Made by a program: the position numbers and the translations under genes. Positions 675 through 59,322 of a stretch of DNA of 64,000 nucleotides are shown here, in pieces; position 1 is the stretch's first letter; every line of letters begins with the position of its first letter. This stretch comes from an uncultured bacterium (GTDB lineage Bacteria > Cyanobacteriota > Vampirovibrionia > Gastranaerophilales > Gastranaerophilaceae). The stretch covers positions 146 through 64,145 of the forward strand of contig CABUAQ010000001.1 in assembly GCA_902489575.1 (NCBI GenBank), given 5' to 3'. The notes under the pieces were generated by a model. That model was not told where the DNA came from and ran no database searches. It saw only the letters and a program-made list of their open reading frames with translations.

Positions 675-1370
675 ATGAAATATAAAGGCATAATTTTTGA
701 TTTTAACGGAACATTATATTGGGATTCAGCTAAACACAAACAAACCTGGAGAGAATATTCTAAAATTCTTCGTGGAACACCGTTTACCGATGAAGAAATG
801 ATAAAATATATGTTTGGCAGAACAAATGAACAAATCATAAAATACGCAATAGGAAAGCAGCCTACTCCTGAAATGGTAGAAAAATACGGTCAGGAAAAAG
901 AAGCCCTATATCGAAAAATGAGCGTTGAAGATACTGAAAACTTCCACTTAGCTCAAGGTGCAGAAGAGTTTTTGGATTTTTTAAAAGAAAATGATATTCC
1001 GCGAACAATTGCTACAATGTCAGATTGGGGTAATGTTGAATTCTATATTGAACACTTTAACCTTGGAAAATGGTTTGATATAGATAAAATAGTTTATTCT
1101 GATGGAAAAATCCCGGGAAAACCCGCTCCTGATATATATGAAATTGCAGCAAAAAATTTGGGGCTAGCTCCTCAAGATTGTATTGTAGTAGAAGATGCGA
1201 TATCCGGGATTGACTCTGCTAAAGCTGCAAATATTGGAAAAATTATTGCAATATGTTCAGAAGAACCTCCTGAATTATACAAAAATATTCCCGCTGTTAG
1301 TGGAATTATTCAAAATTTTGAGGATTTTGACAAAACATTGTTCGAGCTTCCCAGCCATAACAAAATCTAA
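675..1370 (+). CDS. HAD-superfamily hydrolase (beta-phosphoglucomutase-like, subfamily IA)
   Basis: HAD motif I 'IIFDFNGTL', later 'GKPAPDIY' and 'VVEDAISGIDSAKAANIG'. 231 aa. Starts right after the upstream stop. Confidence 0.75.
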   Translation: MKYKGIIFDFNGTLYWDSAKHKQTWREYSKILRGTPFTDEEMIKYMFGRTNEQIIKYAIGKQPTPEMVEKYGQEKEALYRKMSVEDTENFHLAQGAEEFLDFLKENDIPRTIATMSDWGNVEFYIEHFNLGKWFDIDKIVYSDGKIPGKPAPDIYEIAAKNLGLAPQDCIVVEDAISGIDSAKAANIGKIIAICSEEPPELYKNIPAVSGIIQNFEDFDKTLFELPSHNKI

Positions 1371-2128
1371 TTCCAAGGATAATCAGAACTAATCTTCCAG
1401 CCATCTTTAAATATAACAGCTGCACAGGCAGTTCCAACTCCAGGTCTATCTCCATTATAAGCAAATGATGTTGCATCCTTGTTACACCCTCGTGGTATAT
1501 TTTTGTCAAGCAATTGTGCTCTTGTATATTGAATATGAGGTACTCCTCCACCTCCATATCCACCTGGATAAATACCATTAGCTATAACAGTAGTTTTATC
1601 TAAAGAGAAATCGTTATTAAACAAATAAAACGAAAAAACATCTTTTCCCATCTGATTTCGAGCACTTTTCCCGTTTATATCAACTATAACAGATATCAGG
1701 TGAAATGCTCCATCATTAACTTTATTAAAGCCAAATACCATTCCATTATTCAATACAATACTATATGGTACAGTGTGTGTCATTCTTACACCTGCAAGAT
1801 CATAATAACCATTAAAATTACCGGTAGTCCAACATCCATCACTCATACGGGTACATACTCTTGCAACATTTAAATATGGCAAAAAATATTTCCGTGCAAA
1901 TTCATCAACTGGCAATGAAGTATCAAAATAAATAGACCCTTCATCTCCTGACTCGGCACTATACATTCTAACCGCCTGAGATAATATTGACAAAGCCTCT
2001 CTAATACCCGAAACCGCAGCACGTTTTTGATACATTGTTATTAAACTTGGAATAGTAAAAGCTGCAATAACTCCAATAATCCCTAATGTTATTAAAACTT
2101 CTGATAAAGTAAAAGCTTTTTTCTTCAT
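1367..2128 (-). CDS. Type IV pilin-like protein (prepilin N-terminal cleavage/methylation domain)
   Basis: N-terminus MKKKA|FTLSEVLITLGIIGVIAAFTIPSLI (class III signal peptide with Glu at +5). C-terminal Cys pair and tail '...CAAVIFKDGWKISSDYPWN' shared with paralogs in this window. Confidence 0.85.
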   Translation of the reverse strand: MKKKAFTLSEVLITLGIIGVIAAFTIPSLITMYQKRAAVSGIREALSILSQAVRMYSAESGDEGSIYFDTSLPVDEFARKYFLPYLNVARVCTRMSDGCWTTGNFNGYYDLAGVRMTHTVPYSIVLNNGMVFGFNKVNDGAFHLISVIVDINGKSARNQMGKDVFSFYLFNNDFSLDKTTVIANGIYPGGYGGGGVPHIQYTRAQLLDKNIPRGCNKDATSFAYNGDRPGVGTACAAVIFKDGWKISSDYPWN

Positions 2129-6663: not shown

Positions 6664-6696
6664 CTAACACAAACAGGAGCACTTAAAATGCTCCTG
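6664..6696 (-). terminator. Rho-independent terminator after pilin-like gene A
   Basis: Stem CAGGAGCA (6674-6681) / TGCTCCTG (6689-6696) with a 7-nt loop, followed on the minus strand by TTTGTGTT. Confidence 0.6.
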
Positions 6697-6713: not shown

Positions 6714-7510
6714 TTACTTAACATTCCAAGGATAATCTCCTTGAATAGTCCAATTATCTCCAACAATTAATGCAGCACACCAATAACCGCTTTTACCCTT
6801 TGCGCACGAGTTACCACTAGAACCTTTAACGACATCACGTTTATAAACTTTTCCTATACTCCAGCTCGCAGGAGTACCTGCATTACCTAACGGCTGCAAT
6901 CCATATTCTGAACTTAGGAAAAATAAAAATGTATCTTTGCCTACTTTATTTGGTTTTGAAATTCCATTAACATCAATCCCTACCCATAAACCGCTTTCAT
7001 TACCAGAATTTAGGTTTGCAGAAACAATAGCACCGTTAATTAAAGAAAAATGATACGCATTTCCCCCTGTATATGTCGTTCCGGAATATCTTGATCCATT
7101 TAAATTTGTCCTTGGAGCAACTTTAAATAACTCCCCGGAAGAATAAGAGTTCATAACTTTTACATAATTTTGAATGTACTTTTCAAAAAAAGCTTTACCT
7201 GATAACGTTGTATCCCAAGAATCAACTTCTCCGTTATCTTCTTGAGATAACTTCATTGCCTGCTGCATAATACTATAAGTCTCTTTTAACTGTGTAACTG
7301 TTTTTCTTTTTTGGTAATTAGCAATTAACCCGGGTATTGTTAATGCAGCAACAACTCCTATAATACCTAATGTAATCAAGACCTCAGATAATGTAAACGC
7401 GTTTAAAGTCCGGGGTAAAAATAGTTTTCTAATCGCGAAACCGCGGTCAAAGTAAGGCTTTAAGAGGTTACCCCCCCCCCGAATTTCTTACTATACTTGA
7501 ATTTTAGCAT
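6714..7510 (-). pseudogene. Type IV pilin-like gene A, frameshifted at a G10 tract as assembled (candidate phase-variable, OFF state)
   Basis: SD AAAGGAGGA plus ATG 7510 opens MLKFKYSKKF, then G10 (7480-7471), then GGGVTS and stop at 7462-7460. The pilin body (..LNA|FTLSEVLITLGIIGVVAALTIP.. to 6714, ending GDYPWNVK) is open only in the frame reached with G11 or G8. The track start at 7379 is a TTG inside the hydrophobic helix. Confidence 0.8.
7471..7480 (-). repeat. Homopolymer G10 on the coding strand (C10 on plus)
   Basis: Direct read: 'ggtta cccccccccc gaatt'. Exactly ten C at 7471-7480. Confidence 0.95.
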
Positions 7511-7607
7511 ATTTATCCTCCTTTATTATTGACAGATATAATATAACATATTATTTGAAATATTACAAACAGAAAATTTATGTTAAAATTAGAAAAAAGG
7601 AGCTCAT

Positions 7608-15422: not shown

Positions 15423-16213
15423 TTATCTATATAAAGAGTCCCAATAACCTTTTGTCTGATCATCCGGATTTTTATCTTTCTTTGCCCAATCATAACAACC
15501 TCGTCCATTATATCGAGATTCGTCTTTATTGTTACAAAGGTTGTTCCAACCACCTGTGGTATAAATAAATAAATCATATCCATATCTGTCTGGACCATTG
15601 TGTGGCCCGTTTGTATCAAAAGTAAACGTTATACCATCGTAAACACCATGATAAAAGTAGGTTATAGAAGTAACAGAAGCTCCACTTTGTAATAAATACA
15701 TCCTGGGCTTATCAACTGTTCTATATTCCATTCCATATACATTTGCATAAGGTAATACTCTTTTAGTGCCTTTGAAATTTGTTACAAACTTTCTCTTCTT
15801 CATCTTATTATACAAATAATCCCAAGTAAGCGGAGTCGCACCTGCAAACTGACTTGCCCAAACGGAATTCACAACACTAAAATATTCTTTATTTTTATCC
15901 CAAGGCTCATTTCGTCTTGCATTAAAATCTGCAAAACTATCAACTGAGAATTCTTCAGATGTCATTTTCATGGCTTGCTGCAATACCGCGTCCATTTTAG
16001 TAAAAGCAATCTTCAATGATTTTCGTTGATAATTATGATACATAATTGGAATAATTATAGCTGCGACAACACCGATAATTCCCAAAGTGATCAAGGTCTC
16101 AGCAAGGGTAAACGCCTGTTTCTTCTTTTTAAACCCGTAAAAAACATTTACGAATAAACTCTTTAAAAGGCTACCCCCCCCCCGAAATTAAAGCTATGAC
16201 TGTGTTTTAACAT
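15423..16213 (-). pseudogene. Type IV pilin-like gene B, frameshifted at a G10 tract as assembled (candidate phase-variable, OFF state)
   Basis: SD AAAGGAGGA plus ATG 16213 opens MLKHSHSFNF, then G10 (16183-16174), then GGGVAF and stop at 16165-16163. The pilin body (..KKKKQA|FTLAETLITLGIIGVVAAIIIP.. to 15423) is open only with G11 or G8. No ATG/GTG/TTG lies between the tract and the FTLAE motif in that frame. Confidence 0.8.
16174..16183 (-). repeat. Homopolymer G10 on the coding strand (C10 on plus)
   Basis: Direct read: 'ggcta cccccccccc gaaatt'. Ten C at 16174-16183. Confidence 0.95.
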
Positions 16214-16231
16214 TTTACATTTCCTCCTTTA

Positions 16232-24762: not shown

Positions 24763-26229
24763 TTATGCGTTAAAAATATTAAAGGATTTTTCTACGTTAT
24801 TACTAATTACTTTTTTTACAGACTCATATTCTGTTTGTAATGCGTTATGCTCTGATTCAAGTTTGTTTAATTGGAGGTCAAATTGTTTATCCTGACTTTC
24901 AATTTTATCCATTTGAGATTGATAAACTTGTTCTGCAACAACCATAGCTGCGGAATCCTCTTGTTCTGTAATAGATTCATCACTATCAATAGTTGTCCCG
25001 ACAAAAGCTTTATCTACTGTTGAATAATATGATAATGTTAAAGCTCCGGATTTTAATTGTTTTACAAACCATTCAGTATCTTTAAAGTTTGTTTCATTAT
25101 CAGTTGTTGTATAACCGCAAGAACTCATCTGATTAAAGATATTACGGTAATAAGTAACCATCTCTGCATCATATTTCAGAGTTTGAGAACTTCCTGAAAC
25201 AGAGTTATTGTAATAAGCTTCTGTAATTGCAACAGCATAATCATATAATTCTCTTTGAGAAGCATTTGTACCTTCATAATTCAAGGCTTGAGACTGCTTA
25301 GTTACATCATAAACAACCCCGCCTTCATCAACATAAGAATTGTCAGACTGCCAGATTAAATAGTTTTTCTGCTCATCACTGATTAAAGCATCTCCATTTG
25401 CATCAGTATCAGCATATAAAACATCATATTCCAAAGCTTCTTCAGAACCTTCCGGTTTAAAAAGAAACTTACCGGTTTCTGCATTATATGTAACATCATC
25501 AACAACTGTCCAATCATTGGTACCCTGCTGAGAAGCATTTTGATACCCGACAACAGTTTCAATTTTACCTGTAGCAGGATCCTCAACGTTTCTTGCTTCC
25601 AAAACATATCTGTTCTTATAATAACCCTGACTGTCTTTATCAAGATTGATTACCTGTCCGTCTTCGGTTGATGTGTAAGCGGTATTGTATGTAACATAAC
25701 CGTCAAAAGACTCTTTGCTGAATGCAGTATAATCAAAACCTAAAATATGCTGTCCATCCATATCATAAATACTTTTCCCGACTGATGATAAATATTTATC
25801 CCAGGCTTCGTGGATAGCTTCTTCAGATTTTGAATATTCATTTACGTTAATATCAGATTGAGTATAACCCAAATCTCTTAAAAGTTTATTAAAATCACCG
25901 TTATTTTTCTGATAGGCATTAGCAATCTGAGAACTTACCAAAACTTTACCGCTGTTATCCTTTACAAGGTACTGTTTACCTGAAGCAACAGAATTACATC
26001 CTGTTAATTGATTGTATGTTAAATCAGCATATGTTGCTTCCGTATTATTATAACCTGTAAGAACCTGATATTTTGTTTTTGCAAGAGCATCTAAATAAGC
26101 ATCATTTATTTGTTCTGAATTATCAGACAGACGCTGCTTTGAATAAGCTAAAGATTGCTGCTCCATTTCATTGTTAGAAAGTCTAGCAGTAATACTTAAC
26201 AATCTGGCTTGTGATGCTGCCATACCCAT
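24763..26229 (-). CDS. Uncharacterised protein with helical/coiled-coil termini and a variable central domain
   Basis: Start set at ATG 26229 (MGMAASQARLLSITARLSNNEMEQQS...); the track start is a TTG 21 nt upstream. C-terminal heptad-like 'QMDKIESQDKQFDLQLNKLESEHNALQTEYESVKKVISNNVEKSF'. No signal peptide or TM segment. Confidence 0.7.
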   Translation of the reverse strand: MGMAASQARLLSITARLSNNEMEQQSLAYSKQRLSDNSEQINDAYLDALAKTKYQVLTGYNNTEATYADLTYNQLTGCNSVASGKQYLVKDNSGKVLVSSQIANAYQKNNGDFNKLLRDLGYTQSDINVNEYSKSEEAIHEAWDKYLSSVGKSIYDMDGQHILGFDYTAFSKESFDGYVTYNTAYTSTEDGQVINLDKDSQGYYKNRYVLEARNVEDPATGKIETVVGYQNASQQGTNDWTVVDDVTYNAETGKFLFKPEGSEEALEYDVLYADTDANGDALISDEQKNYLIWQSDNSYVDEGGVVYDVTKQSQALNYEGTNASQRELYDYAVAITEAYYNNSVSGSSQTLKYDAEMVTYYRNIFNQMSSCGYTTTDNETNFKDTEWFVKQLKSGALTLSYYSTVDKAFVGTTIDSDESITEQEDSAAMVVAEQVYQSQMDKIESQDKQFDLQLNKLESEHNALQTEYESVKKVISNNVEKSFNIFNA

Positions 26230-26316
26230 AATATTAACAGTTCCTTTCAATAATTTTCGTATTCTTATTTATGATTACGGCTTAATTATTATGAAACTTT
26301 AGTTCTCGCCGGCTAA

Positions 26317-26356: not shown

Positions 26357-28228
26357 TTAAAGAACCTCAATATTGTTTTCGGCAAAATACAGTCGGAAAA
26401 AGAAACAAGCTACATGCTGTATAGAATCGACTCTTACCCACTGGCGGGTAGCCTTGAAGCGAATTGCGCCTTTAGATTTTTGAGGGTTTTTGTGAGCATA
26501 TGTATTTTTATCAGAGTTATATAAAATCATTTGCGATTTTGCAGTCTTTCTGCAAGTATCCAATATTTGTTCTGCAAGTTCTGTCATTTCGAGATTTTTT
26601 GCAAGATAGTATGCTGCAATTAACCCCTCAGAACGTGAGCCGTCAGGATAAAAATGATCACCATAATTGTAATAATATCCGCCTTCATAATCAATATACG
26701 GGGAATCATCCTTTTGATACGTTTTTTCAATCATTACTTTAGCATCATTGAATACAAAATTTATAAGATTATCTTTTCTAAATTCAGGATTTTTAACCCA
26801 TTCTTCTATTGCCTGCATAAGCCAGGCATCAGAAGGAAGTGCCGTGAATAAATCCGAATATAATTTTGGTCGTTCATCAACAATCCAATCCAGTGCAATC
26901 TTACATTTTCCAATAACCTGAGAACGCAGCAACTCATCATCTTGAAACTGGTTGACAAAAAGCCCTAAACCCAGCAAAGCTTCTCCCGGATAATAAAAAG
27001 AAAATGTAGCTCTGCGTTCAGATCCACCTAAGTCTACAAGAGGTTCTCCGTCATTATAAAGCGGATGGATATAATACCCAAGCATTTCACCTGTTTTATG
27101 AATTCTTGATAAAAGATGTCTTGTATATTTTTTTATATAGTCATCATAAGATTTATCACCCGTTTGAGTCCGGTACTTCATCATAGCAATCAATATCATG
27201 CCGGTTCCGCCAAGCTTAGCCTTCTTATTATAAAAAACATATGCTCCAACTTGCCCGTCAATATTATGTTCTCTGGTAATTGAAGTAATAAAATCAATAC
27301 CTCTTTTGGCAGAAATTATATATTTTTCATCGCCTGACAACTGATATGCCCTTATAAGAGTAATAATCCCGCCGCAGTGTCGCAAATCATTATAATATAA
27401 ATCATTTTCATGAGCATTCGGGTGTTCATGATCTTTATAATTATCCTCCTTGGCATCATAGTAATACAAATACCTGCCATCTGCTTTTTGATATTTTACA
27501 ATCCAATCAGCACCGTTCAATGCCATTGTCTTAATAACTTCAGGCGAATATTCATATAAAACATTGCCCCGGTACAAAGGTAAAACCGAATCCTGATAAG
27601 TTATAAATGCATGACTTTTTATAATGTATAAGTCATACATAGCCTGTTTTAATATACTTATACGTTCAGAAATTTTATTGGTTATATTTTTAATATGAGT
27701 TTTTCTAAGAATAGTGTTTAACGCAGATTTTAAATCCATCTGGCTCAGTACCCAGGCATCTGTCGGAGTGTAAATATAAGGAACGCCATTTAATACCAAC
27801 TTTAAACCGCTTACACCGGGTTCAAATCTATATTCACTAAATTCTGAGTATTTTATATCTTCAAGCTTGACAGGAATTTGTTCTGTTATAATCTCAATCA
27901 TAATCCTACATTTACTCATATTGCCTGTCTCAAAATCTTTAAATGAAGGATAAGCTTTAATTTTTTCAATATTTCGGTTTATGGTCTGCACGAATGTTTT
28001 CCGGCAAGAGCCCCATCTAATCGGTTTTAAACCCTCCTGAAAAAGAGTTATATAAACATAAGTATAACTTGCGTCATACCTTATAAACTCCTCAATATTT
28101 ATTCCTGACAAATCAATATTATCATCTCCTGCCAGAGCCGCTCTTATTCGCAACAACAGCTCGTTTACCTGTGAAAAATCTTTGCAGTAATACTCTTTTT
28201 CTATTTCATTTTCTTTTGAATAATCCAT
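26357..28228 (-). CDS. Large hypothetical protein (C-terminal half possibly alpha/alpha-toroid-like)
   Basis: 623-aa uninterrupted ORF with no shadow competitor. No TM or signal peptide. Helix-repeat-like C-terminal half rich in Y/W/D. No confident family call. Confidence 0.6.
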   Translation of the reverse strand: MDYSKENEIEKEYYCKDFSQVNELLLRIRAALAGDDNIDLSGINIEEFIRYDASYTYVYITLFQEGLKPIRWGSCRKTFVQTINRNIEKIKAYPSFKDFETGNMSKCRIMIEIITEQIPVKLEDIKYSEFSEYRFEPGVSGLKLVLNGVPYIYTPTDAWVLSQMDLKSALNTILRKTHIKNITNKISERISILKQAMYDLYIIKSHAFITYQDSVLPLYRGNVLYEYSPEVIKTMALNGADWIVKYQKADGRYLYYYDAKEDNYKDHEHPNAHENDLYYNDLRHCGGIITLIRAYQLSGDEKYIISAKRGIDFITSITREHNIDGQVGAYVFYNKKAKLGGTGMILIAMMKYRTQTGDKSYDDYIKKYTRHLLSRIHKTGEMLGYYIHPLYNDGEPLVDLGGSERRATFSFYYPGEALLGLGLFVNQFQDDELLRSQVIGKCKIALDWIVDERPKLYSDLFTALPSDAWLMQAIEEWVKNPEFRKDNLINFVFNDAKVMIEKTYQKDDSPYIDYEGGYYYNYGDHFYPDGSRSEGLIAAYYLAKNLEMTELAEQILDTCRKTAKSQMILYNSDKNTYAHKNPQKSKGAIRFKATRQWVRVDSIQHVACFFFRLYFAENNIEVL

Positions 28229-34569: not shown

Positions 34570-36747
34570 TTATATTTTTACTAATTCAGAAATTGTCGGA
34601 TCTAATAATCTTCTGCCAACGTTTTCAAAAGCAATTGAACAAAGAGTTTTGTTACCGTATTTTATAATTTTTTCAATAACTCCGCGCCCGTATCGTGGAT
34701 GAGATACACTATCACCTTGCTTGAAATCTCCGATACTTTCTTCAAAATTATCTCCCTGCTCCGCAGGATAAACAGGAACAACAGGTGGCTGCTCATTAGT
34801 AAAAGCATTATCTAACTCAGAGTCTGACAGGACTTCAGCATCTAAAAAATCTTCAGGCTGTGCCATTTGATTATCTTCAATAAAATTCAAATCATCTTCA
34901 GTTAATTCTGAAACCTGCTCAAAATTATCAACAGATTCTGAAATATCTGAAAAGTCATTTAAATTACTATTATCGTCCACAGACAGACTATCCAGTTCCA
35001 AATCCGCTTCCAATACAGGTTCTTCTAAAAGGTCATCATTTAAAGAAACATCTTCTAATAGATTATCTACAGGTTCTATTATCGAAGGTTCAGAAAAGGC
35101 AGATTCTGAATCTTCAGGCAGACTAACCGGTTGGGCAACGGCAGATGAATTCACGGTCTGTACAGGCTCACTAACAACAGGAGAAACAACCGGTTCGGGA
35201 TCCGGTTGAACAATTTCTTGTGTTGAATAAACTGCAGCTTCTGATATTACCGGAGATTGCTCTGCAACCACAGCTGAAGATTCTTCCACAACTTCTATCG
35301 CAGGTTGTTCAATTTCCGGAATAGGTGTAATCAATTGCGAAACCTGTGCCGGTTCTGTGGATACAGCCTCATATTGAGTGGAAATATTATCTGTTGTATC
35401 AAGAGCTTCAGGCTCACTTTCTGTCTGTGCTGAAGTCTGAACAGGTACCATATGCCCATCATCTTCAATCTTTACTAATTGGAGATTTTCACTACCTGCA
35501 GGTACAAACTGATATCGATCACCCAACACATCATCTCTTGTTAAATCAAGATCCAAATCTGACATATCTGCAATGAACGGAATTCCCTGGGTCAATTTAC
35601 CATAAACAATACATTCATCAGGATTTAGTTTATTAAGGAATGTATTATATGCAGTAAAATCATGATTTAAGGATTGAGGAGCAAATAAAATCATATTTTG
35701 AGCATGCTGCTTCAATTCAGATGCATATTTATACGAGCTGCTCACAATCATTGTTGTAAATATATGATTATTGTTTATCAATTGTTTTAAAAGCTTTTTG
35801 TCAGAATTTTCATCTGTTAAACAAACAAACAGGTAGACATACTTATCAAAAGATTCCAGTGTTGAGTGAATAAATGTTATAACCTCTTTTTGCAAAGATT
35901 CGTGAATATTTTTTAAATCAATAATTGAACAATTCTTCTCATCCAATTCCTTTTTTAACGCAAAGACTTCATCCTTTGTATTGGCAAAAACATTTGCATC
36001 TTTGTATTTTAAAAGTTTATTTTTTAAAAGTGCAAGTTCGGGCATTTGCATCTCTTTATACTGATTAGCAACAACTTCAACAAAATTATCAATCGGTAAA
36101 AATTCAAAATCTAATGTTTTGATATACTGCTGAACTGCATAAAAAATATCCTGTATAACAGCTTTCGTTGGAGCATCAACTTCAGCTAATTCATATTCAA
36201 AAATATAATCTATCATTTTTGAATTAAGCGGAAGCTTAAAATCTTTTGCAAACTCAATTTTTGGATAATCTTCAAACAAATTAGACGTATCAATAACAAC
36301 ACTTTTTTCTTTCAACTGGAAAAGTTGTCTTATACAGTTTGAAATAAATGTCATTTTATTAATATCTTTTTCTGCAAAAATAGTAAAATTACGTTCGAAA
36401 ACAGAAATATCTAAATTAAGCATTTCGCTTTGCTGTGAGAGTTCACCAATTTTTATAGCAGTTTCAACAGGCAATAAGTTTAAAAGTTCTTCAGAAGGCA
36501 AAAAAGATAATTCAGAATTTATGCTTGGAATTGAACCGTCATAATTATCAACCACCCCGTCAGGAGTAAAAGTAAACAGCAATTTAGCAATAGCAAAATT
36601 ATTCACAGTATCTGATTTCAAATTTACGAATTGAGCAACATATGATTTTCCGTCAGCTGCCAAAATAATAAACCTTCCCAATATCGGGGTTTCACCCTCA
36701 CTATAAGATAATTTTACCAAATTATTCTTAATCTCAAGTAATTTCAT
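34570..36747 (-). CDS. HerA-like protein lacking a P-loop, with an acidic disordered region and a PcrA/UvrD-type Tudor-like C-terminal domain
   Basis: 725 aa. N-terminal barrel-like lead-in (LGRFIILAADGKSYVAQFVNL). No canonical Walker A. About 200 aa of E/D/P/S/V-rich low complexity. C-terminus 'GDSVSHPRYGRGVIEKIIKYGNKTLCSIAFENVGRRLLDPTISELVKI'. Confidence 0.5.
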   Translation of the reverse strand: MKLLEIKNNLVKLSYSEGETPILGRFIILAADGKSYVAQFVNLKSDTVNNFAIAKLLFTFTPDGVVDNYDGSIPSINSELSFLPSEELLNLLPVETAIKIGELSQQSEMLNLDISVFERNFTIFAEKDINKMTFISNCIRQLFQLKEKSVVIDTSNLFEDYPKIEFAKDFKLPLNSKMIDYIFEYELAEVDAPTKAVIQDIFYAVQQYIKTLDFEFLPIDNFVEVVANQYKEMQMPELALLKNKLLKYKDANVFANTKDEVFALKKELDEKNCSIIDLKNIHESLQKEVITFIHSTLESFDKYVYLFVCLTDENSDKKLLKQLINNNHIFTTMIVSSSYKYASELKQHAQNMILFAPQSLNHDFTAYNTFLNKLNPDECIVYGKLTQGIPFIADMSDLDLDLTRDDVLGDRYQFVPAGSENLQLVKIEDDGHMVPVQTSAQTESEPEALDTTDNISTQYEAVSTEPAQVSQLITPIPEIEQPAIEVVEESSAVVAEQSPVISEAAVYSTQEIVQPDPEPVVSPVVSEPVQTVNSSAVAQPVSLPEDSESAFSEPSIIEPVDNLLEDVSLNDDLLEEPVLEADLELDSLSVDDNSNLNDFSDISESVDNFEQVSELTEDDLNFIEDNQMAQPEDFLDAEVLSDSELDNAFTNEQPPVVPVYPAEQGDNFEESIGDFKQGDSVSHPRYGRGVIEKIIKYGNKTLCSIAFENVGRRLLDPTISELVKI

Positions 36748-44610: not shown

Positions 44611-45285
44611 TTAGTAAGGCATAACCCAGTTATTTTCAATAACAGCAGCTGCACAATGATTAGCATTTCCAGCTTTACACATCGTTATTTTCTGGGCAAG
44701 TGTCAAATCCTCATTAAGAGGTGTAATCTTTCCTTTTCTGGTTATATAGAAACAGAAGTAATCCCTACCCCACATATTTGGACCATCATTAGCGTTAACA
44801 TCCATACAAAAATCAGAAATAACGTCATCTGTTGTATCAGCATAATAAACTTGCTTAGTGACAAGAGAGTACGATATAATACCGCCGTTTTGGAGCAATA
44901 TACTTGTATATCCAGCTCCTACCGGAGTAGCTGTTCCACCATTTAAATTACGATAAGTAATCAATTTTCCCTGCTCATCCTGAGTTGTTTTCCAACAATC
45001 TTTTGCGGAATCAGCACAAGTTTTAGCAACCGAGAAATTTGAATTTGTCAGTAATGTTGCAGGATTTTTAAAATCTGTTTCCAATAAATTTTTTGTTTTA
45101 TGCGCAATAAGCTGATCAAAAATAAGTTGTTGAACCGAACCTACCGTACTTTTTAACTGAGTTGTCAGCAATCTGTTATTTATAGAAATTAACAAACTTG
45201 GTACTGACAAGGCAGCAATAGCACCAACAATACCCAATGCTACCAATAATTCTGTTAACGTAAATGCATTCTTATTATTTATCAT
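44611..45285 (-). CDS. Type IV pilin-like protein
   Basis: Start at ATG 45285 (SD AAAGGAG): MINNKNA|FTLTELLVALGIVGAIAALSVPSLL. C-terminal Cys pair '..MCKAGNANHCAAAVIENNWVMPY'. Confidence 0.85.
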   Translation of the reverse strand: MINNKNAFTLTELLVALGIVGAIAALSVPSLLISINNRLLTTQLKSTVGSVQQLIFDQLIAHKTKNLLETDFKNPATLLTNSNFSVAKTCADSAKDCWKTTQDEQGKLITYRNLNGGTATPVGAGYTSILLQNGGIISYSLVTKQVYYADTTDDVISDFCMDVNANDGPNMWGRDYFCFYITRKGKITPLNEDLTLAQKITMCKAGNANHCAAAVIENNWVMPY

Positions 45286-45295
45286 AAAAACTCCT

Positions 45296-45988
45296 TTAAT
45301 TATCATTTACCAAATAGTTCGGATCAAATCCTGTCAACACCGCCAGTGTATAACAAGCATAGGGTTTACCGTTTGCTTTGCAATCTGCACGATTTACTGC
45401 AATATCCTCACTGTGCTCAAGATGATCCCCAGTGTGGATTCCATTATTTAAATCGTTCTCATCAGACAATTCCAACTCAAAAAGATCAACCCCGGCAATA
45501 TTTGGTTCTTTATTACCGTTCAAATCAATATTGAAAAGTACGGCTTTCCTCCCATTATACTTTGCACTTGATGCAGATCTGGGTGCTAACAATCCAATAC
45601 CTACCCCCGTTTTTAATAAAACCGAAGCATTATACGTTCCAGTACCGATGCCACTTACGGCAGTTCGATCAAAGTTTTTATACCCTCCCTCCGGAAAATA
45701 TATTAGTGTTCCGCTGCCCTGACCATCTACTACATCAAACTTGTTAAGAAACTTTTCCGGATTTTTAAATATATCAGTATCTGAAAGCTTTCTGGCGCCT
45801 GTTTGTATAAGCTCATTTTGAACAAGATCATTCAAATTTGACACAGTTCCCTGTAACAACGCCATTGATGACCTATTTTGAATATCTTTTATTACCCCTG
45901 CTATTACCAATGCTGCAACCGTTCCAATAACAGTTAATGCTATAAGAACCTCAGATAGCGTAAAACCATCTTTTTTTATCTTAATCAT
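45296..45988 (-). CDS. Type IV pilin-like protein (canonical Gly at -1)
   Basis: MIKIKKDG|FTLSEVLIALTVIGTVAALVIAGVI. Immediately upstream of 44611..45285. Confidence 0.85.
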   Translation of the reverse strand: MIKIKKDGFTLSEVLIALTVIGTVAALVIAGVIKDIQNRSSMALLQGTVSNLNDLVQNELIQTGARKLSDTDIFKNPEKFLNKFDVVDGQGSGTLIYFPEGGYKNFDRTAVSGIGTGTYNASVLLKTGVGIGLLAPRSASSAKYNGRKAVLFNIDLNGNKEPNIAGVDLFELELSDENDLNNGIHTGDHLEHSEDIAVNRADCKANGKPYACYTLAVLTGFDPNYLVNDN

Positions 45989-46933: not shown

Positions 46934-47938
46934 ATGACAGTAAAATTTGAAGGACAAGACAGACGTCAAGCTACTTTGAAAAAAGTTTTACCTGAATACG
47001 GTCTAAAAAACTTGGAAGAAGCTCGCGAATTATGCTTATCAAAAGGAATTGATGTTGATGCAATCGTTAAAGGTATTCAGCCTATCGCATTTGATAATGC
47101 TTCTTGGGCATATACTTTGGGTTGTGCTATTGCAATTAAAAAAGGCCTTAAAACTGCTGCTGAAGTTGCTGAGGCTATTGGTTTAGGTTTACAAGCGTTT
47201 GCCGTACCGGGCTCTGTTGGTGACAGAAGGCAAGTTGGTATCGGTCACGGTAACCTTGGTGCAATGCTATTAAGAGAAGAAACTAAATGTTTTTGTTTCT
47301 TAGCCGGTCACGAATCTTTCGCTGCTGCTGAAGGTGCTATCGGTATTGCCAGAAACGCTAACAAAGTTAGAAAAGAACCTTTAAGAGTTATCTTAAACGG
47401 TTTGGGTAAAGACGCTGCATACGTTATTGCAAGAATTAACGGTTTTACAGCTGTTGAAACTGAATATGATTACAAAACCGGTGAATTAAAAATTAAAAAA
47501 GAAATACCGTTCTCAGATGGAGAAAGAGCTAAAGTTAAATGCTATGGTGTTGATGATGTTAACGAAGGTGTTGCAGTAATGATTCATGAAGGCGTTGATG
47601 TATCTATCACCGGTAACTCAACTAACCCGACTCGTTTCCAACACCCTGTTGCAGGAACTTACAAAAAATGGTGCTGGGAAAACGGTAGAAAATACTTCTC
47701 AGTAGCATCAGGCGGTGGTACAGGTAGAACTCTTCATCCGGATAACGTTGCTGCTGGTCCTGCTTCTTACGGTATGACAGATACTATGGGCAGAATGCAC
47801 GGTGATGCACAATTCGCAGGTTCTTCTTCAGTTCCTGCTCACGTAGAAATGATGGGCGTTATCGGTATGGGTAACAACCCTATGGTAGGTGCTACAGTTG
47901 CATGTGCCGTTGCTGTTTCTCAAGCTATGAGCAAATAG
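46934..47938 (+). CDS. GGGtGRT-family protein (function unknown)
   Basis: Contains the eponymous 'ASGGGTGRTLHPDN' motif. 334 aa. Follows a NifU-like gene, as I recall for this family. Confidence 0.8.
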   Translation: MTVKFEGQDRRQATLKKVLPEYGLKNLEEARELCLSKGIDVDAIVKGIQPIAFDNASWAYTLGCAIAIKKGLKTAAEVAEAIGLGLQAFAVPGSVGDRRQVGIGHGNLGAMLLREETKCFCFLAGHESFAAAEGAIGIARNANKVRKEPLRVILNGLGKDAAYVIARINGFTAVETEYDYKTGELKIKKEIPFSDGERAKVKCYGVDDVNEGVAVMIHEGVDVSITGNSTNPTRFQHPVAGTYKKWCWENGRKYFSVASGGGTGRTLHPDNVAAGPASYGMTDTMGRMHGDAQFAGSSSVPAHVEMMGVIGMGNNPMVGATVACAVAVSQAMSK

Positions 47939-58701: not shown

Positions 58702-59322
58702 CTAGAATTTAATTGGATAATCGCTCTTAAATTCCCATTGATCATTTTGCAACAGCCTGGTACAACTGGATCTATTATTTACACATTGGTCTATCATAGC
58801 TTGACGGGAAGTAGCTTGGCTAGTTATACCAGATCCATACACCCCAAAAAATATATCCTCACTGCCAAAGTAGTCTCTTCTACCGTCTTTATTGAAACAA
58901 TATAAGAATCTATACTGATCGTACCCCTCAGAATTAGGTGATTTATCACCGTTTACATCGTAAATAACATCCAAACATCCACCGGTAAAAAAAGTTCCCA
59001 GCTTACTTCCGTCTTTATAATATACCTGCTTTGTCGCTGTATCCACAAACTGATGCCCCATATACGGATCAATATTTTCCATATACCAATCAAAGCCATT
59101 ACCCTGGGTCGGAAGAATCATATCTTTAAATGAACCTTTATCCATCTGCATATCAAGCACCGCATTATCCATTTTGCTGTAGAAATTCTTCAATTTTGCC
59201 GAATATTCTTTCTTAACTCTGTTATAATTCAATGTAGGAATTGTCAGTGCTGCAACTACACCGACAATTGTCATTGTTATCATAACTTCCGCTAAAGTAA
59301 ATGCCCATTTTTTTTGCATCAT
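58702..59322 (-). CDS. Type IV pilin-like protein
   Basis: MMQKKWA|FTLAEVMITMTIVGVVAALTIPTL. C-terminal 'DQCVNNRSSCTRLLQNDQWEFKSDYPIKF' shares the Cys-loop and W..DYP tail of the family. Confidence 0.85.
   Translation of the reverse strand: MMQKKWAFTLAEVMITMTIVGVVAALTIPTLNYNRVKKEYSAKLKNFYSKMDNAVLDMQMDKGSFKDMILPTQGNGFDWYMENIDPYMGHQFVDTATKQVYYKDGSKLGTFFTGGCLDVIYDVNGDKSPNSEGYDQYRFLYCFNKDGRRDYFGSEDIFFGVYGSGITSQATSRQAMIDQCVNNRSSCTRLLQNDQWEFKSDYPIKF

What the first reader, a model, noticed from the sequence alone, without database searches (positions are those of the whole stretch)
7460..7510. Locus A: a G10 tract separates a 16-codon leader ORF from a pilin body that has no start codon of its own
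On the coding (minus) strand a strong SD (AAAGGAGGA) and ATG 7510 open MLKFKYSKKF, which runs straight into ten G (plus-strand C10, 7471-7480).
- As assembled (G10), the frame reads GGGVTS and stops at TAA 7462-7460.
- With G9, the tract is followed immediately by TAA.
- With G11 or G8, the frame continues as GGGGNLLKPYFDRGFAIRKLFLPRTLNA|FTLSEVLITLGIIGVV... down to 6714, giving a complete prepilin-like protein.

In the pilin-body frame there is no ATG, GTG or TTG between the tract and the FTLSE processing motif. The track 'start' at 7379 is a TTG inside the hydrophobic helix. A processable protein therefore needs a frame change.

A 10-nt G/C homopolymer is very unlikely by chance in DNA that is about one-third G+C. 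This is the classic architecture of slipped-strand phase variation, but a homopolymer miscall would look the same.
Basis: seen in the sequence. Interest (0 to 1): 0.8.

Follow-up and report, generated by a model that had tools for sequence, protein, structure and literature searches.

The report
Poly-G on/off switch in pilin leader
A run of ten G bases splits a pilus-subunit gene of an uncultured gut bacterium (Gastranaerophilales, non-photosynthetic relatives of cyanobacteria) from its start codon, and comparison with relatives suggests it is a real, widely shared, length-variable on/off switch of a known kind rather than an assembly error.

Summary
SD AAAGGAGGA and ATG 7510 open a 16-codon ORF that runs into G10 (7471-7480) and stops at 7462-7460. 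The pilin body, down to 6714, is open only in the -1 frame and has no start codon of its own.

A second locus has the same architecture (ATG 16213, G10 at 16174-16183). These are the only G/C runs of 7 or more in 64 kb; about 0.01 runs of 10 are expected.

The gene is a type IV pilin-like DUF6613 protein of Gastranaerophilales. In 157 homologous genes from genomes and metagenomes, 50 carry a G or C run of 8-12 in an extended leader.

Between tract and cleavage site, the pilin frame has 7 stops in 1420 codons, against about 140 in each other frame. So the fused reading is under selection.

Tract length varies among near-identical contigs: G9/G10 here; C9/C10/C11 and G10/G11 at homologous loci in other species. 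The 11-mers read straight from the SD-ATG into the pilin. A G8 in-frame allele exists with the same MLK... leader type.

This fits slipped-strand phase variation: a new member of a known kind in a new phylum. One feature is unexplained. Length 10, one base short of ON, dominates, and no 10-mer is in frame. No ON allele of this locus was found.

The parts
7540..7568 (-). Promoter-like site TTGTAA-17 nt-TATATT with a TG extension, upstream of the SD of locus A
   Evidence: Consensus scan. This stretch is almost invariant between the window and the 83% nt ortholog L002 (alignment). Function is inferred.
7516..7524 (-). Shine-Dalgarno AAAGGAGGA of the leader ORF
   Evidence: Read. An SD plus ATG at the same spacing recurs in the homologous tract-bearing loci.
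7460..7510 (-). 16-codon leader ORF as assembled (MLKFKYSKKFGGGVTS, then stop)
   Evidence: It is the only SD-preceded start codon serving the pilin body.
7471..7480 (-). G10 homopolymer on the coding strand (C10 on the + strand): the proposed slippage tract. ON lengths are 11 or 8.
   Evidence: It is G10 in L001 and L083, G9 in L084, and G8+A in L002.
7398..7470 (-). Post-tract part of the extended prepilin leader, open only in the -1 (pilin) frame (NLLKPYFDRGFAIRKLFLPRTLNA)
   Evidence: In ortholog L002 it is open and similar at the protein level (NPLKPYSNCSFAIRKIFLPKKLNA). Family-wide this segment has 7 stops in 1420 codons in the pilin frame, against 151 and 127 in the other frames.
6714..7397 (-). 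Mature pilin-like protein (FTLSEVLITLGIIGVV..., DUF6613), including the stop codon at 6716-6714
   Evidence: Pfam DUF6613 at 9.7e-11; N_methyl 19.1 bits, below the 21.2 cutoff. Profile match of the N-terminus to solved type IV pilins, E = 3e-7. AF2 model: helix 41-93 followed by a beta domain.
6666..6696 (-). Terminator-like hairpin (CAGGAGC, 9-nt loop, GCTCCTG) followed by TTTGTGTT, after the pilin stop
   Evidence: Read directly. The scan did not list it, because its loop limit is 8 nt. Function is inferred.
16222..16230 (-). Locus B: SD AAAGGAGGA, immediately after the stop of the upstream BrkB-family gene
   Evidence: The upstream gene hits Pfam PF03631.
16163..16213 (-). Locus B: 16-codon leader ORF (MLKHSHSFNFGGGVAF, then stop)
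16174..16183 (-). Locus B: G10 tract, with the same frame relation as locus A (needs +1 nt)
   Evidence: It is G9 in L191 (same species, at a contig end). It is G10 in the syntenic ortholog L193, which also needs +1 nt.
15423..16173 (-). Locus B: post-tract leader (SLLKSLFVNVFYGFKKKKQA) and mature pilin-like protein (FTLAETLITLGIIGVV...)
   Evidence: Pfam N_methyl 24.4 bits, above the 21.2 cutoff.

Best explanation
Locus A, and its twin locus B, is a translational phase-variation switch, also called a contingency locus.

A promoter and a strong SD-ATG drive translation of a short leader ORF that runs into a poly-G tract. The tract lies inside an unusually long prepilin leader. In the assembled state (G10) ribosomes stop three codons after the tract. 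The pilin body has no start codon, so it is not made: this is OFF.

Replication slippage that adds one G, or removes two, fuses the leader ORF to the body: this is ON. The product is a prepilin whose roughly 38-residue leader, tract-encoded glycines included, would be removed by prepilin peptidase before F+1. The mature protein therefore does not depend on tract length.

About one third of the many DUF6613 pilin paralogs of Gastranaerophilales carry such a switch. Each is OFF in most cells, so a population would display a changing subset of pilins.

Shown here: the architecture; its recurrence; selection on the fused frame; length polymorphism among near-identical contigs; and natural in-frame alleles at homologous loci.

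Inferred: that slippage is frequent and reversible; that the leader is cleaved; and that OFF-state transcripts suffer polarity.
For: 1. Two of two long G/C runs in 64 kb sit in the same place in two paralogous pilin genes, where about 0.01 are expected.
2. Of 157 homologous genes found by tblastn, independent of gene calls, 50 carry a G or C run of 8-12 between an SD-ATG and the FTLxE site.
3. The leader after the tract is kept open in the pilin frame in 47 of 50 loci, against 1 and 3 of 50 in the other frames.
4. Length differs between near-identical contigs.
   - Locus A is G10 in L001 and L083 as in the window, and G9 in L084.
   - Locus B is G10 or G9.
   - A C-type locus is C9 in 3 contigs, C10 in 14 and C11 in 3.
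   - A G-type locus is G10 or G11.
5. The 11-mers read from the SD-ATG into the pilin (P0159, MFRQEALRVPPPPRNVSSSKG|FTLAE; P0107, MKFKENKLVGGGGNRLKSS...AA|FTLAE). L126, which has the same MLK... leader type as the window, is in frame with G8.
6. Protein clusters at 90% identity contain both long and truncated N-termini.
7. A G tract occurs on the coding strand in some genes and a C tract in others, with the same flanks on the G strand. This fits a DNA-level mechanism.
8. No conserved or unusually stable RNA structure follows the tract.
9. The same leader-ORF / G-tract / startless-body layout is a proven replication-slippage switch for sortase pili in Bifidobacterium breve (PMC9187656).
Against: - No in-frame (G11 or G8) allele of locus A or B was found. 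This covers the few assemblies of this species and the 5.8-billion-protein database.
- The G9 variants come from a 2.8-kb contig (L084) and from a contig end (L191), so they could be technical.
- Consensus states are far from random. Of 50 tracts, 33 are exactly 10 long. None of the length-10 tracts with an identifiable start is in frame. 29 loci need +1 nt and 11 need -1 nt. Only 2 are ON, both with 8-mers.
- Phase variation alone explains this skew only with added assumptions: a mutational mode at 10, and selection for mostly-OFF.
- No reads, transcripts or proteins were available.
Confidence: 0.72

Rival explanations
1. Programmed recoding at a fixed 10-mer. The normal genomic state is G10/C10. 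The pilin is made constitutively at a low level, in one of two ways. RNA polymerase inserts one extra base on the homopolymer (transcriptional slippage). Or ribosomes slip -1 on three consecutive rare GGG or CCC codons.
For: - Length 10 dominates (33 of 50 tracts), and none of the length-10 tracts with an identifiable start is in frame. 23 of 27 such 10-mers need exactly the shift that a +1-nt RNA insertion or a -1 frameshift would give.
- At the best-sampled locus, C10 holds about 85-90% of contigs, with C9 and C11 as roughly equal minorities.
- The ATG-to-tract distance is about 9-10 codons in most loci.
- GGG and CCC are the rarest codons of their families in the window, at 14% and 9%.
Against: - In-frame 11-mer and 8-mer alleles exist as assembled majority states, some in long contigs.
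- 11 loci need the opposite shift. These include a clade that is G10 in three separate loci (L030, L110, L124).
- No conserved stimulatory RNA structure follows the tract; z-scores are 0.15, -1.2 and -2.3, and the shapes differ between orthologs.
- The same element works as a G run in some mRNAs and as a C run in others, which is awkward for one RNA-level mechanism.
- From my own knowledge, not tested here: known bacterial transcriptional slippage sites are A/T runs.
Confidence: 0.12
2. Technical artefact. The true tract is G11 and the gene is an ordinary intact gene with a long leader. Library PCR, sequencing or assembly systematically loses one base in G/C homopolymers.
For: - 'One base short of ON' is the commonest state.
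- PMC9187656 reports that database G-tract lengths can differ from error-corrected measurements.
- Two contigs from other samples break at or just after the locus B tract (L191, L192). Some variant alleles are in short or low-coverage contigs.
Against: - G10 is reproduced in assemblies from different samples and assemblers (Logan, MEGAHIT, SPAdes).
- Assemblies from one project (the BRZ_ samples) give C10 in two samples and C11 in another at the same locus.
- A uniform -1 bias would leave the loci that need -1 nt, and those that are G9 needing +1 nt, still out of frame.
- The two ON loci have 8-mers, not 10-mers.
Confidence: 0.07
3. Decaying pseudogenes. The frameshifts are inactivating mutations in redundant pilin paralogs, and the tract has no function.
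For: - Every allele of loci A and B seen so far is out of frame.
- The L002 ortholog has an interrupted tract (G8 then A).
- There are many paralogs: six pilin-like genes in this window alone.
Against: - The body and the post-tract leader stay open in 47 of 50 loci, across species whose pilin bodies are only 30-40% identical.
- The tracts stay uninterrupted at 8-12 nt, with an SD-ATG in place.
- The frameshift is always at the tract and nowhere else in the gene.
- In-frame alleles occur at homologous loci.
Confidence: 0.05

Closest known systems
Bifidobacterium breve UCC2003 sortase-dependent pilus genes bbr_0113a/b and bbr_1889a/b (PMC9187656)
   Same: It is a gut commensal. A short upstream ORF carries the translation start and the export signal. 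An intragenic G tract follows, then a pilin body with no functional start. The reference state is OFF. Replication slippage restores the fused ORF, and equivalent tracts are spread through the genus.
   Different: - Those are Sec-signal, LPXTG sortase pilins of an actinobacterium. Here the genes are type IV pilin-like proteins with a class III leader, in Melainabacteria.
- There the productive event is mostly loss of one base; here it is mostly gain of one.
- There the switch sits on the first gene of a pilus operon. Here it sits on scattered single genes, in about a third of a very large paralog family.
Neisseria pilC poly-G tract in the signal-peptide coding region, and other Neisseria / Haemophilus / Campylobacter / Helicobacter homopolymer contingency loci (own knowledge; surveys PMC5084427 and PMC5320596 were listed but not read)
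   Same: A G/C homopolymer in the 5' coding region of a surface or pilus-associated gene toggles the reading frame. In Campylobacter, as here, long G/C tracts stand out in a low-G+C genome.
   Different: - PilC is a pilus-associated adhesin or assembly protein, not a pilin.
- In those species, ON and OFF alleles are both common in genome sequences (own knowledge). Here assembled consensus states are almost always OFF, and 66% of tracts are exactly 10 nt.
Type IV pilins and pseudopilins (PilA, PilE, GspG, PpdD, geopilin)
   Same: - The cleavage context is (G/A)|F-T-L-x-E.
- There is a hydrophobic alpha1-N.
- The N-terminus matches solved pilins at the profile level, E = 3e-7 to 1e-3.
- The model has a long N-terminal helix followed by a beta domain.
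- There are two invariant C-terminal cysteines.
   Different: - The globular DUF6613 domain has no significant structural match in the PDB; the best Foldseek E-value is 0.99.
- The leader is 36-38 residues or longer in tract-bearing members, against 4-10 residues in the tract-free paralogs.
Programmed transcriptional slippage and -1 ribosomal frameshifting (dnaX, IS elements, Shigella mxiE; review PMC5009743 cited within)
   Same: A homopolymer lies between two overlapping frames, with a short zero-frame ORF ending just after it. The same shift is required in most family members.
   Different: The run is G or C rather than A/T. There is no stimulatory structure. In-frame genomic alleles exist, and a minority of loci need the opposite shift.

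Membership tests
Slipped-strand (SSR) translational phase-variation locus | An uninterrupted simple repeat long enough to be hypermutable (G/C run of about 7-8 or more) and over-represented against chance | tested here: met
   There are G10 runs at 7471-7480 and 16174-16183. Between 0.004 and 0.013 runs of 10 are expected in the window.
Slipped-strand (SSR) translational phase-variation locus | The repeat lies in the 5' coding region, so that ±1 changes switch between a full-length and a truncated product | tested here: met
   G10 gives a 16-codon ORF. G11 or G8 gives a 265-aa prepilin. The body has no alternative start.
Slipped-strand (SSR) translational phase-variation locus | Tract length is polymorphic among closely related strains at the same locus | tested here: met
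   - Locus A is G10, G10, G10 and G9 at 99.1% nt identity or more.
- Locus B is G10 or G9.
- Homologous loci show C9/C10/C11 and G10/G11.
- Caveat: the variants of this species come from a short contig and from a contig end.
Slipped-strand (SSR) translational phase-variation locus | Both ON and OFF alleles exist in nature | tested here: inconclusive
   This is met at homologous loci in other species (C11 P0159, G11 P0107, G8 L126). It is not met for loci A and B of this species: all alleles found are OFF.
Slipped-strand (SSR) translational phase-variation locus | High-frequency reversible switching within a clonal population | not testable with these tools
   This needs reads or cultures. The organism is uncultured.
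Type IV pilin / pseudopilin (class III signal peptide) | A leader ending in G/A at -1, F at +1, E at +5, then about 20 hydrophobic residues | tested here: met
   ...TLNA|FTLSEVLITLGIIGVVAALTIP. F39, T40, L41 and E43 are invariant in the 22-sequence alignment.
Type IV pilin / pseudopilin (class III signal peptide) | Sequence-model membership (Pfam N_methyl; similarity to solved pilins) | tested here: met
   N_methyl scores 24.4 bits for locus B (cutoff 21.2) but 19.1 bits for locus A, below the cutoff. The family profile hits geopilin, PilA, PpdD and GspG at E = 3e-7 to 1e-3, with chain residue 1 aligned at F+1.
Type IV pilin / pseudopilin (class III signal peptide) | The pilin fold: a long N-terminal helix packed on a beta sheet, with a C-terminal disulfide | tested here: inconclusive
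   The AF2 model (pLDDT 85) has helix 41-93 and then strands. C236 and C245 are invariant. There is no significant Foldseek match to PDB pilins; C. difficile PilA1 appears only at probability 0.11.
Type IV pilin / pseudopilin (class III signal peptide) | Prepilin peptidase and assembly ATPase/platform genes in the same genome | not testable with these tools
   None was found among the 10 larger window ORFs scanned, and only this 64-kb contig is available. pilB, pilC, pilD and pilT are reported in another Gastranaerophilales genome (PMC5877343).
Programmed -1 frameshift / transcriptional slippage site | The same shift is required in all members, and no in-frame genomic alleles exist | tested here: not met
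   29 loci need +1 nt and 11 need -1 nt. In-frame alleles exist.
Programmed -1 frameshift / transcriptional slippage site | A conserved stimulatory RNA element next to the slippery run | tested here: not met
   Folds of the 64-76 nt after the tract give z = 0.15, -1.16 and -2.30. The structures differ between locus A and its ortholog.

The most novel reading that the evidence does not exclude
The tract may be more than a passive slippage-prone repeat. It may be the core of a dedicated, conserved DNA element of the form (T)TC-G10-CA(A/C)T..AAGCT(T).

Three observations point this way.
- The element is found in either orientation relative to the gene.
- It is held at exactly 10 nt.
- It is never in frame at that length, across dozens of species and paralogs.

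Expression would then depend on something not yet described for G/C runs. One option is efficient programmed transcriptional realignment or -1 frameshifting on GGG/CCC triplets. Another is a factor that recognises the flanks and controls when the tract changes length.
Probability: 0.12. Interest if true: 0.8.

Novelty: new member of a known kind. Interest (0 to 1): 0.5.

Why it matters
Gastranaerophilales are widespread, uncultured gut relatives of cyanobacteria, and almost nothing is known about their surface biology.

If the reading is right, these bacteria run a large set of phase-variable genes built on type IV pilin-like proteins. About one paralog in three would be switchable, and almost all appear OFF in the assembled consensus. 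That implies stochastic display of alternative pili, which bears on adhesion, immune (IgA) evasion or phage evasion in the gut.

Hiding the tract in a cleavable leader is a tidy design, because tract length does not change the mature protein.

There is also a practical consequence. Gene callers mis-annotate these genes. Some are called as N-terminally truncated proteins that start inside the helix. Others start at an implausible TTG that abuts the SD. Databases and the DUF6613 family therefore carry wrong N-termini.

I found no paper linking Melainabacteria or Gastranaerophilales with this switch in the open-access library.

The mechanism itself is well known, so the finding extends an established principle rather than overturning one.

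Tried and rejected
- **Alternative start for the body.** There is no ATG, GTG or TTG in frame between the tract and FTLSE. An in-frame ATT (the Ile of ...FAIRK...) has no SD. The TTG at 7379 lies inside the helix, with GAGG only 2 nt upstream. All were rejected.
- **PRF stimulator.** RNA folds downstream of the tract show nothing conserved or stable.
- **Structure match.** The AF2 model is confident, but Foldseek against the PDB gave no significant hit. Pilin membership rests on the N-terminal module only.
- **Mosaic breakpoint.** I suspected the tract marks a recombination breakpoint, because upstream sequences differ between L185, L188 and L189. The alignment showed a conserved promoter and SD instead. 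It also showed an in-frame 54-nt indel plus divergence inside the leader ORF. I dropped the breakpoint idea.
- **245-aa 'ON' proteins at C10 (P0036, P0150).** Their start is a TTG directly abutting GGAGG, with zero spacing. I treat them as a probable gene-caller artefact and count them as OFF for SD-ATG initiation.
- **Pilus machinery in the window.** None was found among the 10 ORFs scanned.
- **Literature.** Searches for Melainabacteria or Gastranaerophilales with phase variation, and for DUF6613, gave nothing relevant.
- **Not used.** The exhaustive representative-protein search and the viral collections were left unused, as they were unlikely to change the verdict.
Full report
**1. The observation**

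On the minus strand, AAAGGAGGA (7524-7516) and ATG (7510-7508) open the ORF MLKFKYSKKF. It runs into ten G (7480-7471; C10 on the plus strand), reads GGGVTS, and stops at TAA 7462-7460.

The pilin body reads FTLSEVLITLGIIGVV... from 7397 to the stop at 6716-6714. It lies in the -1 frame. That frame opens only three codons before the tract and holds no ATG, GTG or TTG before the FTLSE motif. The mechanical ORF start at 7379 is a TTG inside the hydrophobic helix.

G11 or G8 would give one 265-aa prepilin. G9 would place TAA directly after the tract.

The window is 34.4% G+C. It has only five G/C runs of 6 or more, with lengths 6, 6, 6, 10 and 10. Between 0.004 and 0.013 runs of 10 are expected. 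GGG makes up 14% of glycine codons in the window's genes.

**2. A twin locus**

The other 10-mer (16174-16183) has the same anatomy:
- SD AAAGGAGGA at 16230-16222 and ATG at 16213.
- The ORF MLKHSHSFNF, then G10, then GGGVAF and a stop at 16165-16163.
- In the -1 frame, ...GGGGSLLKSLFVNVFYGFKKKKQA|FTLAETLITLGIIGVV... runs down to 15423.

The two leaders are alike on both sides of the tract (MLK......F-GGGG-xLLK). That similarity is only visible in the fused reading.

Four other pilin-like genes in the window have ordinary short leaders: MKKKA|FTLSE, MQKKWA|FTLAE, MINNKNA|FTLTE and MIKIKKDG|FTLSE.

**3. What the gene is**

The fused protein hits Pfam DUF6613 (9.7e-11) and the N-terminal methylation motif. 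The motif score passes the cutoff for locus B but falls just below it for locus A.

A family profile matches the N-termini of solved type IV pilins and pseudopilins, with residue 1 of the mature chains aligned at F+1 (E = 3e-7 to 1e-3).

An AlphaFold model (pLDDT 85) shows a disordered leader (residues 1-38), a 53-residue helix and a beta-rich domain. That domain has no significant match in the PDB. Two C-terminal cysteines are invariant.

Record titles of related loci place the family in Gastranaerophilales / Melainabacteria. A genome of that order is reported to encode pilB, pilC, pilD and pilT (PMC5877343). No pilus machinery was found among the 10 window ORFs scanned.

**4. The family-wide pattern**

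Homologous genes were collected by tblastn, so the sample does not depend on gene calls. They came from one genome per species and from metagenome contigs. The two sets were not de-replicated against each other.

Of 157 genes with enough upstream sequence, 50 (32%) carry a G or C run of 8-12 within 220 nt upstream of the FTLxE site. In most, an SD-ATG lies 6-10 codons before the tract, and the zero frame stops 2-5 codons after it.

Between the tract and F+1, stop codons are distributed as follows:

| Frame | Stops | Codons | Loci fully open |
|---|---|---|---|
| Pilin frame | 7 | 1420 | 47 of 50 |
| Second frame | 151 | 1405 | 1 of 50 |
| Third frame | 127 | 1380 | 3 of 50 |

The extended leader is therefore under selection to be read through from the tract. 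This rules out a plain 5' UTR and argues against pseudogenes.

**5. Length polymorphism**

*Same species, locus A.*
- The window is G10.
- L083 (100% identical over 2371 nt) is G10.
- L001 (another sample, 99.83% identical) is G10.
- L084 (99.1% identical, a 2.8-kb contig) is G9.
- The 83% nt ortholog L002 has G8 followed by A. Its post-tract leader is still open and similar: NPLKPYSNCSFAIRKIFLPKKLNA.

*Locus B.*
- It is G9 in L191 from the same species. That contig ends 8 nt after the tract.
- Another contig (L192) ends inside the tract.
- The syntenic ortholog L193 has about 68% amino-acid identity and is G10. It needs the same +1 nt.

*Other species, near-identical DNA.*
- One C-type locus is C9 in 3 contigs, C10 in 14 and C11 in 3. 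The C11 allele reads MFRQEALRVPPPPRNVSSSKG|FTLAE from the SD-ATG.
- One G-type locus is G10 in several contigs and G11 in three. The G11 allele reads MKFKENKLVGGGGNRLKSS...AA|FTLAE.
- L126 has the same MLK... leader type as the window and is in frame with G8: MLKLNHSLKIGGGDLLKLYSD...KAA|FTLAE.

Protein clusters at 90% identity mix long and truncated N-termini, as expected from variable tract states.

**6. Mechanism**

The best-supported reading is slipped-strand phase variation. A promoter-like TTGTAA-17-TATATT site, conserved in L002, lies upstream of the SD. It and the SD-ATG would drive the leader ORF.

At G10, translation ends after 16 codons and the startless body is silent. At G11 or G8, the leader ORF is fused to the body. 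The leader would then be cleaved before F+1, so tract length would not alter the mature pilin.

A terminator-like hairpin follows the gene at 6696-6666 (read). Cleavage, polarity in the OFF state and switching frequency are all inferred.

The closest documented analogue is Bifidobacterium breve UCC2003. There a G tract separates a short ORF carrying the start and the signal peptide from a startless sortase-pilin body, and replication slippage restores expression (PMC9187656).

**7. What does not fit neatly**

Tract lengths across the 50 loci are:

| Length | 8 | 9 | 10 | 11 | 12 |
|---|---|---|---|---|---|
| Loci | 3 | 4 | 33 | 8 | 2 |

Among the 43 loci with an identifiable SD-ATG:
- 29 need +1 nt.
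- 11 need -1 nt.
- 2 are truly in frame, both with 8-mers.
- 1 is in frame but interrupted by stop codons.

None of the length-10 tracts with an identifiable start is in frame. At the best-sampled locus, C10 holds roughly 85-90% of contigs.

Phase variation can accommodate this if two things hold. Ten would have to be the mutational mode. Each of many alternative pilins would have to be ON in only a minority of cells, so that the consensus always reads OFF.

The regularity also keeps two rivals alive:
- **Recoding on a fixed 10-mer** (confidence 0.12). It is weakened by the in-frame alleles, by the loci that need the opposite shift, by the lack of a stimulatory RNA structure, and by the use of both G and C runs.
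- **Systematic one-base under-calling** (confidence 0.07). It is weakened by agreement across assemblers and by assemblies from one project (the BRZ_ samples) giving both C10 and C11. It also fails for the loci that would stay out of frame after a +1 correction.

**8. An unexplained regularity in the flanks**

Written on the G strand, genes with a coding-strand G run and genes with a coding-strand C run share the same flanks:
- The base 5' of the run is C in 34 of 38 G-type loci and in 11 of 12 C-type loci, usually as (T)TC.
- The base 3' of the run is C in 31 of 38 and in 11 of 12. It is commonly followed by A(A/C)T and, 4-10 nt further on, AAGCT(T).

The motif therefore lies after the tract in G-type genes and before it in C-type genes. 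There it encodes different peptides (GNLKL against EALRV).

This suggests either an old inversion of a roughly 35-bp module or a constraint at the DNA level. The C-type genes form essentially one clade, so the number of independent observations is small.

**9. Verdict**

- This is a new member of a known kind: a homopolymer contingency switch. It occurs in a phylum where none seems to have been described.
- Three features stand out: the tract hidden in a cleavable prepilin leader, its presence in a third of a large paralog family, and a striking bias to the 10-nt OFF state.
- Direct proof of switching needs reads or experiments.

Noticed in passing
window 16163-16213 (tract 16174-16183), body to 15423, minus strand: A second locus has the identical architecture: SD, a 16-codon ORF (MLKHSHSFNFGGGVAF, stop), G10, and a startless pilin body in the -1 frame. 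It sits between a BrkB-family gene and prfA. The syntenic ortholog L193 keeps G10 and the same frame.
   Followed up: yes
window 1367-2128, 44611-45306, 45296-45988, 58702-59322 (all minus strand): Four more pilin-like genes have ordinary short leaders and no tract: MKKKA|FTLSE, MINNKNA|FTLTE, MIKIKKDG|FTLSE and MQKKWA|FTLAE. That makes six such genes in 64 kb, scattered among housekeeping genes.
   Followed up: partly
Flanks of the tracts in the window (7481-7483, 7458-7470; 16184-16186, 16161-16173) and in loci L003-L183: On the G strand, nearly all tracts read (T)TC-G(n)-CA(A/C)T..AAGCT(T), whether the G run or the C run is on the coding strand. The same DNA module therefore occurs in both orientations relative to the gene. 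The window's two loci have the TTC and TTAAAG parts, but TA rather than CA after the run. The cause is unknown: an old inversion or a DNA-level constraint.
   Followed up: partly
50 tract-bearing loci (L003-L082, L105-L184): Tract length is exactly 10 in 33 of 50 loci. No 10-mer with an identifiable start is in frame. 29 loci need +1 nt, 11 need -1 nt, and the only two in-frame consensus alleles have 8-mers. This is much more regular than random ON/OFF states would give.
   Followed up: partly
L191 (ends 8 nt after the locus B tract) and L192 (ends inside it): Contigs from two other samples of this species break at the locus B tract. This fits length heterogeneity, or sequencing difficulty, at the run in those samples.
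   Followed up: no
window 6714-7379; proteins P0001, P0037, P0086, P0091, P0125, P0150; loci L095-L104: Public gene calls for this family are systematically wrong at the N-terminus. Some are truncated proteins that start inside the helix (MITLGIIGVV..., MTIPTLV...). Others are 245-aa forms that start at a TTG directly abutting GGAGG. The DUF6613 family inherits these errors.
   Followed up: partly
L185-L190, L164, L179 (leader region upstream of the tract): Among strains of one species, the promoter (TTGAAA-17-TAGAAT with a TG extension) and the SD are conserved. The leader ORF before the tract differs by an in-frame 54-nt indel and by sequence. The frame relation to the tract is thereby preserved.
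   Followed up: partly
window 16215-16220, minus strand: A one-codon ORF (ATG TAA) lies between the SD and the ATG of locus B's leader ORF. It may be trivial.
   Followed up: no
window 24763-26250, 26357-28228, 34570-36747 (minus strand); 46934-47938 (plus strand): Three large ORFs (495, 623 and 725 aa) have no Pfam hit at 1e-5. A GGGtGRT-family protein (PF14057, E = 1e-191) lies near the tandem pilin pair.
   Followed up: no
whole window: The plus strand has many more C than G (12457 against 9553). Most long ORFs, and both tract-bearing genes, are on the minus strand, so both G runs lie on the same strand.
   Followed up: no
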